DNA from: Candidatus Borrarchaeum weybense
GTDB taxonomy: Archaea > Asgardarchaeota > Sifarchaeia > Borrarchaeales > Borrarchaeaceae
Direction of reading: 5' to 3'
DNA: 64,000 nucleotides
NCBI GenBank assembly: GCA_019057385.1
Contig: JAHQJS010000008.1
Span: 128,001-192,000, forward strand
Part shown: positions 56,660-59,343 of the stretch, in pieces
How the letters are laid out: each line of letters starts with the position of its first letter
Numbering within the stretch: position 1 is the stretch's first letter
Position numbers and translations under genes: made by a program
The notes under the pieces: generated by a model
Database searches by the model: none
Told to the model about the DNA's origin: nothing
The model's input: the letters and a program-made list of their open reading frames with translations, nothing else

Positions 56660-57619
56660 ATGGTGGAGAGTACTGAATTAACTGAAACTAAATTTACACC
56701 GGGTGTAGCTATTTCTTCTCAAGAATGTATGGAATGCGGTTCAACTGAAATTGTAATGGACTCTATTCGAGGGGAGAGAATTTGTAGTATATGTGGATTA
56801 GTAATTACAGAACATGTGATAGATACTGGTCCTGAATGGAGAGCGTTTACTTCAGATGAACGCAATAAAAGAAGCAGAGTAGGCAGTCCAGTCTCATGCG
56901 TTGTTCCTTCTATGGGACTATCAACTATGATTGGGTGGGAAAATAGAGATATTTATGGCAACAAATTGTCACCAAAAAAACGTGCCCAAATCTATAGATT
57001 GAGAAAATGGCAAATACGAACAAGATCACAAGGTTCTTATGAGCGTAATCTCTCCCACGCTATACGCGAACTAGAAAGACTTTCTAGTCAACTTGGAATT
57101 CACAATGGAGTAAAAGAATCAGCGGCTGTCATCTATCGGCGGGCTATAGAAAAAAAGTTAGTTCGTGGACGTTCAATAGAAGCTATGGTTGCTGCATCTG
57201 TGTATGCAGGTTCACGACTTAGGAAAGTTCCTCGTACCCTGGATGAGATTGCCCAGTGTACACGTGTTAATAAAAAAGAATTAGGTCGTTGCTATCGTTT
57301 AATTCTTCGAGAACTTCATATTTCAATCCCCATAGCCAGTCCAGTTGACTTCATTTCTCGTTTTAGTGAAGAATTAAAAATCTCTGGAAAAACTCAACAA
57401 CGTGCAATAGAAATTCTAAATCAAGCAAAAGAATTTGGAATTACTGCTGGTAAAGATCCAACTGGTCTTGCTGCTGCAGCATTGTATATCTCAAGCATTA
57501 CTGAAGGTGAGAGAAGAACCCAAAGGGAAATTGCAGAAATAGCAAGGATAACTGAAGTTACTGTTCGTAACCGCTACAAGGAAATTGTTAGAGTACTTGG
57601 AATAAAAATAGCTGTCTAG
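56660..57619 (+). CDS. tfb: Transcription initiation factor IIB
   Basis: CMEC...CSIC ribbon, GPEWRAF, RLRKW, GRSIE, GKDP, TEVTVRNRYKE. Confidence 0.97.
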   Translation: MVESTELTETKFTPGVAISSQECMECGSTEIVMDSIRGERICSICGLVITEHVIDTGPEWRAFTSDERNKRSRVGSPVSCVVPSMGLSTMIGWENRDIYGNKLSPKKRAQIYRLRKWQIRTRSQGSYERNLSHAIRELERLSSQLGIHNGVKESAAVIYRRAIEKKLVRGRSIEAMVAASVYAGSRLRKVPRTLDEIAQCTRVNKKELGRCYRLILRELHISIPIASPVDFISRFSEELKISGKTQQRAIEILNQAKEFGITAGKDPTGLAAAALYISSITEGERRTQREIAEIARITEVTVRNRYKEIVRVLGIKIAV

Positions 57620-57656
57620 ATATTATATTAAATGGCATTATCCTTCTTTTTTTTAA

Positions 57657-57957
57657 TTTTATTGGCGGGAAGTCCCCTTGCGCCAGCTGGGGGATGAAAG
57701 CCGCAAGGTTTTTATAGTGTTTTGCACAGAAGAGTTCTGATGAATATCGAGAGGAAAGCAGGGATACAAGACTCTTGATAGGAAGGCAGTATGGTGTGAT
57801 TTTGAAACCTGAGGGTTGCTATCACAGAATGCCAAGTGGACAGGCTATTCTCTTTAGAGGGTAATCTGCGACACACAGCCGAACGTAAAACGAAAGTTTC
57901 CCGCAAGGGTTGGGAGGACTCGCAGGAAGCCCCATCTGAAAGGGTGGGGTAGTTCAC
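57657..57957 (+). mobile_element. 301-bp non-autonomous relative of the 41359-42742 tnpB element with intact omega-RNA
   Basis: TTTAA|ttttattggcgggaagtcccc LE; 57819-57957 aligns to the tnpB 3' end/RE (41359-41504). Confidence 0.9.
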
Positions 57958-59343
57958 TGAACATGTTGATACCATCGTTTATATTCCACTAATGCCCCTA
58001 ATGTTCTAATAGCTCTTTCTGGTAGTGTATGAACTGGAATTTTGTTCCACTCTAAAAATCTTTTATATTTTTCAAATTGCTTAAATGTGCTTCCCAAGCA
58101 GGATATAATAGGTTTTTTACTGCTTTTCATAACTGCAACAAGTGTTTTGATTGTCTGAAACTCGATATTTGGACCACTTGGGATTGTTACGACAAGCACA
58201 GAATCAACTTGTGGGTCGCTTAGAATGAGTTTTGTTACCCATTCATATCTCTCCGTGTCAGCATCCGCTGCTAAATCAACTGGATTTGAAGGGGTACAAT
58301 GTTGAGGTAAACTATGCAATTGTTCAAGCGTTTTACTGCTAAACTCTGCAAGACGTAAATCATTATTTTCAAGAGCATCTGCTGCTAAGACACCATGTCC
58401 ACCACTATTTGTTATTATACCCACATTATTTCCTTTAGGTAATGGTTGAGTTGCAAAGCAATAGCAAATATCAAGGAGTTCTTCTAGATCCTTTGCAGTG
58501 ATTACACCTGTTTGTTTGAACATTGCTTTAAATGATTCTACAGAACCTGCGAGAGACCCAGTATGTGATTTTGAAGCTTTTGCTCCTGCTTCTGTTTTTC
58601 CAACTTTGCAAATAATAACGGGTTTTGCTTTAGTAACCTCTCTTAGTGTCTTGTAAAATCGTCTTCCTTCTTTTACACCCTCAACATACATTCCGATAAC
58701 TTTAGTGGTTGTATCTTGTTTTAAATATCCTAGAAGATCGCTTTCATTTACATCTATGGCATTTCCATAAGAACATGTTTTACTAATTCCTATCCCCCGA
58801 TATGCACACCATTCAAGTAGTGTTACAAGGATTGCTCCAGATTGGGATAACAACGCAATATTTCCTTTTGTTGGATATCCTATTGTCCTTTCACGTGGTA
58901 CAAGAAAACTATTGATTCCAGAATAAGGATCAAATATACCAATACAATTTGGACCAATGATTTGCATTCCATACTTATGAGCAATTTTTGTGATTTCATT
59001 TTCTCTTTCAGTTCCTACTTCATTTCCTGTTTCTCCAAAGCCTCCAGTGACAATTATAATTACTTTAACTCCCTTTTCTCCGCATTCTTGAACAATCTTA
59101 GGAACTTGTTGTGCTGTTAAAGCTATTATTGCAAGATCCACAGATTCAGGAATATCCTTTATTTTGGAATAAACAGGAGTGTTCAAGATTTCATCTGCAT
59201 AAGGATTAATTGGATAAATTGTACCTTTGTATTTTTGGAGAATCATGTTCTCTAGAATTATGTACCCGATTTTTCCTTTATTCCTACTTGCTCCGATTAT
59301 AGCAACATTAAGGGGAGAAAAAAAAACTTCTAATGATATTCAT
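57954..59343 (-). CDS. acdA: ADP-forming acyl-CoA synthetase alpha subunit (frameshift in the first codons)
   Basis: VAIIGAS, YPINP, IGPNCIG, SQSGA, SHTGSLAG, TNSGG, NPVDL; ATG 59343 is one base out of frame. Confidence 0.85.

What the first reader, a model, noticed from the sequence alone, without database searches (positions are those of the whole stretch)
57657..57957. Mini-element omega-RNA matches the resident TnpB element with structure-preserving substitutions
57819-57957 aligns with 41504-41359. Linkers are near identical while hairpins are rewritten but still pair: TATCGGG-tattt-CTCGATA vs TATTCTC-ttta-GAGGGTA; CTCCC-atcgta-GGGAG vs CCC-gcaa-GGG; RE loop GTAA vs GAAA. Both follow TTTAA and share the LE. 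This gives a ready-made testable pair (TnpB 41403-42638, TAM TTTAA, trans guide TGAACATGTTGATACC...). Caveat: the covariation could have arisen in a related parent tnpB element elsewhere in the genome.
Basis: partly seen in the sequence, partly recalled or inferred. Interest (0 to 1): 0.75.

Follow-up and report, generated by a model that had tools for sequence, protein, structure and literature searches.

The report
Guide-RNA mini transposon in Asgard archaeon
A 301-bp protein-less offshoot of a tnpB (IS200/IS605) transposon in an Asgard archaeal genome still carries the folded guide-RNA scaffold of its tnpB-bearing relatives; this is a known kind of element (a PATE) that must borrow transposase and nuclease from other copies, so it is a well-documented example and not a new mechanism.

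Summary
Window 57657-57957 is a precisely bounded, protein-less IS200/IS605 derivative (a PATE). It lies 3' of TTTAA, ends in GTTCAC, and related genomes hold empty sites at this locus. Its right 163 nt are homologous to the omega-RNA region of the resident tnpB element (42742..41359, minus strand). The linkers are conserved, and three hairpins differ but still pair.

The differences did not arise in this copy, and the resident element is not its source. The same scaffold type occurs in 34 distinct minis, from five genomes of the genus and from metagenomes. On the scaffold tree the minis form one clade with no tnpB-bearing member. No full-length parent was found.

This genome has 7 tnpB copies of the family, 4 minis and one tnpA. 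The family TnpB has a rearranged RuvC-II site (G279 plus alternative E333). The resident copy alone carries C343Y in its zinc knuckle, so it is a doubtful first choice of partner. The window's mini is also atypical: it lacks an 89-nt stem-loop domain that the other 26 complete minis keep.

Use of the RNA in trans by TnpB is inferred, not shown. Meers et al. 2023 already proposed it for PATEs. Verdict: new member of a known kind, with modest interest.

The parts
57652..57656 (+). TTTAA target/transposon-adjacent motif (TAM) directly 5' of the mini element
   Evidence: TTTAA stands 10 nt before GGGAAGTCCCC in 11 of 11 left ends found in this genome. It is also present at 25 of 27 distinct complete minis; the other 2 have CTTAA. 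The empty sites end in TTTAA or TTTAC.
57657..57957 (+). Mini element M1, 301 bp: a protein-less IS200/IS605 derivative (PATE)
   Evidence: Precise presence/absence against G003:C243 and G004:C101, with no target duplication. There are no Pfam hits for the two antisense ORFs inside it. The other 26 distinct complete minis are about 390 bp; M1 lacks 89 nt of the interior.
57672..57695 (+). LE subterminal hairpin (GTCCCC ... GGGGAT), presumed TnpA binding site
   Evidence: Read. It pairs in the consensus fold of 26 minis, with CG/UA and CG/GC exchanges. That TnpA binds it is inferred from IS608/ISDra2 knowledge.
57709..57717 (+). TATA-like box (TTTTTATAG; family consensus TTTATATAG) inherited from the tnpB promoter region of the LE
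   Evidence: Conserved at 0.9 or more across the minis. It lies at the same LE position in the full-length copies, about 45 nt before the tnpB ATG. Promoter function is inferred, not tested.
57795..57957 (+). omega-RNA scaffold homologue: P0 stem 57795-57800/57821-57826; closing stem GTGGAC 57836-57841 / GTTCAC 57952-57957; hairpin 1 57846-57863; long-range stem CTGCGA 57866-57871 / TCGCAG 57920-57925; hairpin 2 57900-57909; hairpin 3 (also the RE hairpin) 57929-57950
   Evidence: MFE fold, consensus fold and pair counts on all 32 scaffolds and on 34 minis only. The covariance model scores it at 190.8 bits, E 7.9e-42.
57958..57973 (+). Flank that would be the guide (TGAACATGTTGATACC) if the scaffold is transcribed outward
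   Evidence: Position relative to the RE. No other TAM-flanked copy in the genome at 2 or fewer mismatches. It is antisense to the last codons of the gene 57954..59246.
41359..42742 (-). Resident full-length tnpB-only element F1 (1,384 bp); TAM TTTAA at 42747..42743
41403..42638 (-). tnpB of F1 (411 aa, P0001): D189 / G279 / alternative E333 / D367; private C343Y
   Evidence: Pfam OrfB_IS605, Cas12f1-like TNB and HTH_OrfB_IS605. Matches ISDra2 TnpB structures at E 1.7e-16.
41359..41567 (-). omega-RNA scaffold of F1, overlapping the tnpB 3' end (P0 stem UGUGA 41567..41563 with UCACA; hairpins 1-3)
   Evidence: Covariance model 166.2 bits.
4888..5329 (+). Second, unrelated-interior mini element family ('N', 442 bp). 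It has the same TAM and the same LE and RE hairpin type, but its RE ends ...GATGTCAC
   Evidence: At least 6 copies in the genome at 87-92% identity.

Best explanation
**What it is.** M1 (57657-57957) is a non-autonomous, protein-less internal-deletion derivative of a tnpB-bearing IS200/IS605-family transposon, i.e. a PATE. The host is an Asgard archaeon of the Sifarchaeum/Borrarchaeum group. M1 belongs to a mini-element lineage of about 390 bp that kept four things:
- the left end, with its TnpA hairpin and the tnpB promoter's TATA-like box;
- a long stem-loop that in full-length copies lies inside the tnpB ORF;
- the base of the P0 stem;
- the whole 3' omega-RNA scaffold up to the right end.

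The stretches that only encode protein were lost. M1 has additionally lost the long stem-loop.

**Shown:**
- exact boundaries and a precise insertion 3' of TTTAA without duplication;
- homology of the scaffold;
- pairing kept through compensatory and wobble changes, both between lineages and within the minis;
- stronger conservation of the scaffold than of the rest of the element;
- one tnpA and seven tnpB copies of the family in the genome.

**Inferred mechanism:**
1. The single TnpA (in copy F7, G000:C7:194221-194586) excises and inserts the minis as single-stranded circles, using the shared LE and RE hairpins, the TTTAA target and the TTCAC end.
2. Transcription from the LE promoter runs through the scaffold into the flank.
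3. A TnpB made by a full-length copy binds that RNA.
4. With TTTAA as TAM and the flank (TGAACATGTTGATACC) as guide, TnpB cuts the vacated donor joint, so that recombination restores the mini. This is the homing model of Meers et al. 2023.
For: **Boundaries and empty sites:**. A DNA contig of a related strain in run X4 also joins 57657 to 57958.

**No coding capacity:**

**Family inventory:** BLAST and the covariance model both find 11 scaffolds in the genome, 7 full-length and 4 mini. There is one PF01797 tnpA, directly upstream of the F7 tnpB and with HUH and Tyr motifs.

**TAM:**

**Structure across all scaffolds:** 98% of cells pair, 11 pairs have double changes, 0 of 500 shuffles reach the score.

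**Structure within minis only:**
- 95.7% of cells pair.
- 7 pairs show double changes against 3.4 expected, reached by 2 of 500 shuffles.
- One hairpin-1 pair runs UG:15, UA:13, CG:5.

**Strand:** G-U pairs place the structure on the tnpB-sense strand.

**Conservation:** the scaffold is 91-95% pairwise identical among minis, against 80-88% for the rest.

**What the deletions spared:** stems are kept. The F-type P0 (UGUGA ... GGUAACGU [about 40 nt coding] ACGUUACC ... UCACA) becomes UGUGAU-GGAAC-loop-GUUCC-AUCACA in the minis. The long hairpin GGUUCGU...GACGAACC is shared by tnpB mRNAs and the 390-bp minis.

**Nuclease:** the family TnpB looks competent. D189 and D367 are invariant. E333 is present in 42 of 42 homologues that have G at the canonical Glu position, and in 0 of 62 that keep the canonical Glu. 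This matches the rearranged RuvC-II class of PMC10691335.

**Precedent:** the concept is stated for PATEs in PMC10055086.
Against: - There is no direct evidence of transcription, processing, TnpB binding or cleavage.
- Copies within this genome differ by 13-16%, so there was no recent burst here.
- M1 lacks a domain kept by every other complete mini, and only one copy of the 301-bp form is known. Its deletion may therefore post-date insertion and may impair function.
- Hairpin 3 doubles as the presumed TnpA DNA hairpin, so its covariation does not bear on the RNA.
- The two long-range stems never vary and so say nothing either way.
- The minis are related sequences, so the shuffle controls overstate significance.
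Confidence: 0.75

Rival explanations
1. Inert relic. The minis are decaying deletion remnants that TnpA still moves. Their scaffold is conserved only by shared ancestry and by DNA-level needs of transposition; no functional omega-RNA is made or used.
For: There is no expression evidence. Contigs from RNA libraries cannot show transcription. There are no near-identical copies in this genome. M1 has lost a conserved domain. Hairpin 3 and the terminal GTTCAC are expected TnpA requirements.
Against: - Hairpins 1 and 2 and the linkers lie 50-160 nt inside the RE, beyond what IS608-type TnpA is known to need. Yet they are the most conserved part of the minis, at 91-95% against 80-88%.
- Pairing in hairpin 1 is kept within the minis through U-G, U-A and C-G series.
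- The deletions that made the minis removed coding loops and spared stems.
Confidence: 0.17
2. The resident element F1 is the direct parent, and the hairpin rewrites arose in M1 after the deletion.
For: They lie 16 kb apart in the same window and share the LE, the RE and the TAM.
Against: - M1's scaffold is 84-90% identical to other minis but 77% identical to F1.
- The M-type hairpins are shared by 34 distinct minis in five genomes and in metagenomes.
- The minis form one clade that excludes F1 (support 0.88-0.95).
- M1's locus is empty in genomes that already hold M-type minis elsewhere.
Confidence: 0.02
3. Host-domesticated regulatory RNA. The mini's read-out transcript acts as an antisense or TnpB-guided regulator of the convergent CoA-ligase gene, whose 3' end it abuts.
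For: The guide region is antisense to the last codons of 57954..59246, and the element supplies that gene's stop codon.
Against: - The insertion is polymorphic and absent from close relatives.
- Other minis sit at unrelated sites with unrelated flanks.
- The family TnpBs keep their catalytic residues, unlike nuclease-dead TldR-type regulators.
- TTTAA overlapping a TAA stop is enough to explain the position.
Confidence: 0.04

Closest known systems
PATEs (palindrome-associated transposable elements) of haloarchaea, e.g. HqIRS71 of Haloquadratum walsbyi (PMC3119063)
   Same: Protein-less, with no terminal inverted repeats and with subterminal palindromes like those of IS605-type elements. They cause no target duplication and arise from IS605/IS1341-type elements by internal deletion. 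Some keep part of the tnpB C-terminal coding region. They are polymorphic between strains.
   Different: The host phylum differs (Asgard). Here the retained part is shown to be the omega-RNA scaffold, with covariation. The 2011 paper predates knowledge of omega-RNA.
PATE-like minimal elements of Geobacillus stearothermophilus IS605 families (Meers et al. 2023, PMC10055086)
   Same: One TnpA serves many tnpA-less copies with similar ends. [quoted passage not shown]
   Different: Those are bacterial, with canonical RuvC TnpB/IscB and a different TAM. Here the mini lineage has its own scaffold variant, and no tnpB-bearing member has been found in it.
ISDra2 TnpB with its omega (reRNA) guide RNA (PDB 8EXA/8BF8/8H1J)
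   Same: The RNA overlaps the tnpB 3' end and the RE, and its guide is the flank. The TAM equals the TnpA target motif. The protein aligns over residues 7-377, E 1.7e-16.
   Different: About 25-30% protein identity only. The canonical RuvC-II Glu is Gly here, with an alternative Glu at 333. The TAM is TTTAA, not TTGAT. The scaffold sequence is unrelated, and there is no Rfam match.
TnpBs with a rearranged RuvC-II catalytic site (Altae-Tran et al. 2023, PMC10691335; also Fanzor1)
   Same: The canonical RuvC-II Glu is replaced by Gly, and a compensating Glu elsewhere is strictly conserved.
   Different: Assignment to a named branch of that paper (e.g. RIIr-5) was not tested. The spatial position of E333 was not modelled.
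[quoted passage not shown]
   Same: Short, non-autonomous and multi-copy, and mobilised in trans.
   Different: MITEs have terminal inverted repeats and usually cause target-site duplications. This element has neither, so it is not a MITE in the strict sense.

Membership tests
IS200/IS605-derived PATE | Too short to encode, and not encoding, a transposase or TnpB | tested here: met
   The element is 301 bp. It holds only two antisense ORFs of 58 and 87 aa, with no Pfam hit, and gives no tblastn match to TnpB beyond remnants.
IS200/IS605-derived PATE | No terminal inverted repeats; subterminal hairpins at both ends, related to those of IS605-type elements in the genome | tested here: met
   The LE hairpin is GTCCCC...GGGGAT and the RE hairpin is GCCCCATC...GGTGGGGT. 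Both are shared with the 7 tnpB copies.
IS200/IS605-derived PATE | Insertion 3' of a short conserved target motif without target-site duplication, and precise presence/absence | tested here: met
   Empty sites read TTTAA|TGAA (G003) and TTTAC|TGAA (G004) against the occupied window. TTTAA stands at 11 of 11 LEs found in this genome and at 25 of 27 distinct complete minis.
IS200/IS605-derived PATE | A Y1 (HUH) TnpA with matching ends available in the same genome | tested here: met
   There is a single PF01797 hit, 131 bits, at G000:C7:194221-194586. It lies inside copy F7, which has the same LE, TAM and RE.
IS200/IS605-derived PATE | Actual mobilisation by that TnpA | not testable with these tools
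   Only the outcome is seen: polymorphic insertions and dispersed copies.
TnpB omega-RNA (guide RNA) | Lies at the 3' end of the element, homologous to the region overlapping the tnpB 3' end and the RE, on the tnpB-sense strand, with the flank as guide | tested here: met
   G-U pairs fix the strand.
TnpB omega-RNA (guide RNA) | Conserved secondary structure supported by covariation | tested here: met
   all scaffolds; minis only. The model also finds the family in 22 of 151 sampled Asgard genomes.
TnpB omega-RNA (guide RNA) | Transcribed and processed into a stable RNA | tested here: inconclusive
   Contigs from metatranscriptome libraries cover other M-family copies, but contigs cannot show transcription and DNA carry-over is possible.
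TnpB omega-RNA (guide RNA) | Bound by TnpB and directs TAM-dependent DNA cleavage | not testable with these tools
   Needs biochemistry or a heterologous interference assay.
TnpB nuclease (resident copy 41403-42638) | HTH + OrfB_IS605 (RuvC) + TNB zinc-finger domain set | tested here: met
   Pfam PF12323, PF01385 and PF07282 all score above their cut-offs.
TnpB nuclease (resident copy 41403-42638) | RuvC catalytic triad | tested here: met
   D189 and D367 are present. The canonical Glu is G279 in the whole family. The alternative E333 is invariant in all G279-type homologues, as in the rearranged RuvC-II class. This rests on alignment only, with no structure check.
TnpB nuclease (resident copy 41403-42638) | Intact C4 zinc finger (CxxC ... 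CxC) | tested here: not met
   The resident copy reads C340-W-M-Y343. Cys stands at this position in the 6 paralogues, in 11 of 11 other family members and in 95 of 99 representatives. The functional effect is unknown.
MITE | Terminal inverted repeats and target-site duplication | tested here: not met
   The ends are asymmetric (TTTTATTGG... and ...GTAGTTCAC) and there is no duplication at the empty site.

The most novel reading that the evidence does not exclude
The mini-element lineage is a self-sustaining 'guide-RNA-only' hyperparasite of TnpB in Asgard archaea. After losing tnpB it kept evolving its omega-RNA under structural selection. Its hairpin-1 and P0 variants occur in no tnpB-bearing member of the clade, and its coding-only segments were excised. 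It may thereby have acquired a preference for, or competition with, particular TnpB paralogues. If so, it would be a natural coding-free map of what this rearranged-RuvC TnpB needs in its RNA.
Probability: 0.2. Interest if true: 0.55.

Novelty: new member of a known kind. Interest (0 to 1): 0.35.

Why it matters
The finding gives a clean natural data set: exact boundaries, empty sites, TAM, and 32-34 diverged scaffolds with covariation. It covers the omega-RNA of an Asgard-archaeal TnpB family with a rearranged RuvC-II site, a protein class that is of interest for Fanzor/TnpB evolution and for compact genome editors.

The minis are free of coding constraint and carry natural deletions. They show which RNA parts are kept when the protein is gone: the base of P0, hairpins 1-3, the linkers and a distal stem-loop. 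This can guide omega-RNA minimisation and in-trans experiments. It does not reveal a new mechanism, because omega-RNA-bearing PATEs that depend on TnpB in trans were already proposed in bacteria.

Tried and rejected
- **Rfam.** No family matched. The whole window was searched at gathering thresholds, and 57600-58000 and 4800-5400 at E up to 1. The only hit was a chance lncRNA match.
- **Search for a full-length parent with the M-type scaffold.**
  - Own genome: 7 full copies, none M-type.
  - Genus, family, order and class: only 6 genomes in all.
  - GTDB species representatives, hairpin-2 pattern: 21 hits. The few that have tnpB carry an F-like hairpin 1.
  - JGI metagenomes, a pattern joining the tnpB 3' coding sequence to M-type hairpin 1: 0 hits.
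  - JGI metagenomes, general M-type hairpin-1 pattern: 19 hits. None has a tnpB; where enough flank is held, an LE lies about 250 bp upstream of the RE.
  - Phylum-wide covariance-model search of 151 genomes: one distant full-length element (L132, TnpB 58% identical) has the same ATCCTC/GAGGAT stem but an otherwise different scaffold. It is not a parent.
- **Viral contigs.** No match to the conserved linker pattern.
- **Sister group of the mini clade.** Not resolved. With the 5' part of the alignment included it is L046 (support 1.0). With the core only it moves elsewhere.
- **Q280 beside G279.** I first suspected it inactivates the resident TnpB. Rejected: that position varies (D/K/N/E) in homologues, and Q also occurs in L043.
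- **Secondary genomic targets of the 11 guides.** None is TAM-flanked at 2 or fewer mismatches.
- **RNA evidence.** Two metatranscriptome runs hold only small shares. Their contigs cover other M-family copies, one running 185 nt into its own flank. They are contigs from RNA libraries, so transcription, ends and strand cannot be shown. The runs gave no cover that could be assigned to M1 itself.
- **Not attempted.** Structure or complex prediction was not run. The tools give no residue distances and cannot model the RNA.

Full report
**Observation.** The stretch 57657-57957 (+) and the resident element on the minus strand were read directly and aligned.
- The right 139 nt of the mini align with 41504-41359 at 82.6% identity (E 8e-36).
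- The left ends align at about 76% over 66-70 nt.
- Both elements are preceded by TTTAA and end in GTAGTTCAC, after which similarity stops.
- The resident ORF 41403-42638 is a TnpB. It has Pfam OrfB_IS605, Cas12f1-like TNB and HTH_OrfB_IS605, and it aligns with ISDra2 TnpB structures at E 1.7e-16.

The resident LE starts at 42742 (TAM 42747..42743). The RNA scaffold of the mini probably begins near 57795, not at 57819.

**Boundaries and mobility.** Related genomes of the same genus hold the same locus without the element. G003:C243 reads ...TTTAA|TGAAATTG... and G004:C101 reads ...TTTAC|TGAAAATG..., with flanks 91-98% identical to the window. The element is therefore exactly 57657-57957. It is inserted 3' of the pentanucleotide without target duplication, which is the signature of IS200/IS605 'peel and paste' transposition. 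In an independent sediment metagenome (run X4), one contig crosses the left junction of the occupied site. Another contig, from a diverged relative, joins 57657 to 57958.

**Inventory in the genome.** The window is G000:C8:128001-192000, part of a 4.18-Mb assembly in 8 contigs. BLAST and a covariance model built from the scaffolds both find 11 scaffolds.
- Seven lie in full-length elements F1-F7. Their tnpB ORFs are open and 72-87% identical to the resident one.
- Four lie in minis: M1 in the window, plus C4:783992-784381, C6:513678-514068 and C6:435748-436139.
- The genome has a single Y1 transposase gene (PF01797, 131 bits). It sits immediately upstream of the F7 tnpB and has HUH and Tyr motifs.
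- All 11 left ends found in the genome carry TTTAA exactly 10 nt before GGGAAGTCCCC.
- Of 27 distinct complete minis from all sources, 25 have TTTAA and 2 have CTTAA.

**Host.** Record titles of the relatives name Ca. Sifarchaeum marinoarchaea, Ca. Borrarchaeum yapensis / Borrarchaeota and 'Promethearchaeota' MAGs. The host is therefore an Asgard archaeon. Its class holds only 6 genomes in the searchable set.

**The scaffold differences are a lineage trait.** Aligning all copies shows three scaffold types.

| Type | Hairpin 1 | Hairpin 2 |
|---|---|---|
| F1-3 | ATCGGG/CTCGAT | TCTCCC/GGGAG |
| F4-7 | ATCAAG/CTTGAT | long, CCCAGTCC/GGATATGG |
| M | CCATCCTC/GAGGATG | short, CCC/GGG |

The M type also has the linker states CCGAACGT and TTGGGAGG. 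It is shared by all four minis here, by about 20 in the four other genomes of the genus, and by 19 metagenome contigs: 34 distinct sequences in all. On a tree of the scaffolds all minis form one clade (local support 0.88-0.95) with no tnpB-bearing member. Its sister group is not resolved. M1 is 84-90% identical to other minis and 77% identical to F1. So F1 is neither parent nor closest relative, and the 'rewritten hairpins' were not rewritten in M1.

**Parent search.** Searches for a full-length parent with the M scaffold failed in the own genome, the class, the GTDB species representatives, JGI metagenomes and viral contigs. What did turn up:
- Full-length elements in other Asgard MAGs (L084, L096) share the M-like hairpin 2 and linkers, but not hairpin 1.
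- A distant element (L132, TnpB 58% identical) shares the hairpin-1 stem, but little else.

**RNA structure.** On 32 distinct scaffolds the consensus fold has these parts:
- a closing stem GUGGAC/GUUCAC;
- hairpin 1;
- a long-range stem CUGCGA/UCGCAG;
- hairpin 2;
- hairpin 3.

98.0% of cells pair against 92.6% in shuffles, and 11 pairs carry changes on both sides. None of 500 shuffles reaches the covariation score, and slid registers pair at 31-46%. The two long-range stems never vary, so they are uninformative. Frequent G-U pairs put the structure on the tnpB-sense strand.

Within the minis alone, 95.7% of cells pair. Seven pairs have double changes against 3.4 expected (reached by 2 of 500 shuffles). 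One hairpin-1 pair runs U-G 15, U-A 13, C-G 5. These sequences are related, so the shuffle figures overstate significance. Hairpin 3 is also the presumed TnpA hairpin.

The scaffold is the best-conserved part of the minis, at 91-95% pairwise identity against 80-88% elsewhere.

**What the deletions kept.**
- In full-length copies the region upstream of CUAUCACAG folds as UGUGA ... GGUAACGU, then about 40 nt that encode the RuvC-III motif, then ACGUUACC ... UCACA.
- In the minis the same outer stem (UGUGAU/AUCACA) encloses only a 4-5-bp hairpin.
- Further upstream, a long hairpin (GGUUCGU...UUUCUAACC...GGUAAAAG...GACGAACC) lies inside the tnpB ORF of all seven full copies. The 390-bp minis retain it, with compensatory changes.
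- The zinc-finger-coding stretch between these two structures is gone.

So the minis look like the RNA-structured parts of the 3' third of the element with the coding-only parts removed. M1 is the exception. An 89-nt deletion removed exactly the long hairpin, and it is the only copy of that form among 27 distinct complete minis.

**The nuclease.**
- In the whole family the canonical RuvC-II Glu is Gly (G279). D189 and D367 are invariant.
- Among 106 aligned proteins (99 representative homologues and the 7 paralogues), E333 is present in 42 of 42 that have G279 and in 0 of 62 that keep the canonical Glu.
- This matches the rearranged RuvC-II class of Altae-Tran et al. 2023, in which Gly replaces the Glu and an alternative Glu compensates. 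The family is therefore probably an active nuclease. This is an inference from alignment.
- The resident copy F1 alone has Tyr for the second Cys of the CxxC zinc knuckle (C343Y). Cys stands there in the six paralogues, in all 11 other family members seen, and in 95 of 99 representatives.
- The effect of C343Y is unknown, but F1 is not the obvious first choice for an assay.

**Mechanism.**
- Shown: a precisely bounded, protein-less, polymorphic element with IS605-type ends, the family's TAM and a structurally conserved omega-RNA homologue, in a genome with one matching TnpA and seven TnpBs.
- Inferred: mobilisation by the F7 TnpA; transcription from the LE's TATA-like box (57709-57717) through the scaffold into the flank; loading onto a TnpB made elsewhere; and cleavage of the vacated joint TTTAA + TGAACATGTTGATACC so that recombination restores the mini.
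- None of the 11 guides has another TAM-flanked match in the genome. That fits homing and argues against regulation.
- RNA-library contigs cover other M-family copies but cannot show transcription.

**Comparison with what is known.**
- The element meets every testable defining feature of a PATE as defined in Haloquadratum. It is not a MITE, since it has neither inverted repeats nor a target duplication.
- Meers et al. 2023 state explicitly that PATEs often encode omega-RNAs that must be used in trans by TnpBs of other IS copies.
- The covariance model finds the RNA family in 22 of 151 sampled Asgard genomes (11 of 52 genera). Several hits have no tnpB within 1.5 kb. Such minis therefore appear common in the phylum.
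- There is no Rfam family for this RNA.

**Verdict.** This is a new member of a known kind. Its value is a well-resolved natural covariation and deletion series for the omega-RNA of an Asgard TnpB with a rearranged active site.

Points for anyone designing the experiment:
- Use a 390-bp mini as well as M1.
- Use TnpB copies other than, or in addition to, the resident one.
- Use TTTAA as the TAM.

Noticed in passing
window 4888-5329 (+); also G000 C4:545985-546428, C4:440737-441144, C5:230873-231315, C7:316388-316834, C3:132576-133019: A second protein-less mini family ('N', 442 bp, at least 6 copies, 87-92% identical). It has the same TTTAA and the same LE and RE-hairpin type, but its RE ends ...GATGTCAC and its roughly 330-nt interior is unrelated. 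No full-length relative was seen in this genome and there is no Rfam match. It may carry a guide RNA for a TnpB or IscB type that is absent here, or something else.
   Followed up: partly
window 57954-57959 and the gene 57954..59246 (-): M1 sits exactly on the stop codon of a convergent CoA-ligase / ADP-forming acyl-CoA synthetase-like gene (Pfam Succ_CoA_lig, CoA_binding). At the empty sites the gene ends CAT-TAA or CAG-TAA, with the stop inside the TAM. In the window the last codon is CA|G and the stop TGA is made of the element's own last bases. The ORF survives, and the would-be guide is antisense to its 3' end.
   Followed up: yes
window 41403-41405; G000:C7:143743-143811: The genome encodes a tRNA-Pyl (CUA). 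The tnpB ORFs of F1-F3 stop at TAG. Reading on in frame gives ...EDSQEAPSVRVG, the same tail that F4-F7 encode with a sense codon (TCG or TTG) at that place. In F4-F7 the ORF thus runs through hairpins 2 and 3 to the TAG inside GGGGTAGTTCAC. Read-through in F1-F3 is possible but untested.
   Followed up: partly
window about 41637-41704 (-), and the equivalent region in F2-F7 and in the 390-bp minis: A long conserved hairpin (GGUUCGU...GACGAACC with an inner AACCUAC/GUAGGU stem) lies inside the tnpB coding region 278-358 nt from the RE. The minis keep it, with compensatory changes, and M1 has lost it. It may be a distal omega-RNA domain or an mRNA processing site.
   Followed up: partly
G000 C6:426240-426335 (-), C6:458409-458630 (-); loci L015, L019: Truncated copies. 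One is an M-type LE followed by unrelated sequence. The other is an F-type LE with only the first 34 codons of tnpB. Both are remnants of further insertions.
   Followed up: no
loci L130, L147 (G091), L131 (G085), L137 (G023), L138 (G116), L141 (G093): Other Asgard genera hold diverged scaffolds of the same RNA family with no tnpB within 1.5 kb. G091 has 8 matches and G023 has 16, many of them at contig ends. This suggests independent omega-RNA-bearing mini families across the phylum.
   Followed up: partly
G000, e.g. C6:302595-303683 and C7:428241-429332 (13 open copies and 3 copies with one in-frame stop): A second, abundant TnpB family that is only 28-34% identical to the resident one. Its ends and RNA were not examined.
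   Followed up: no
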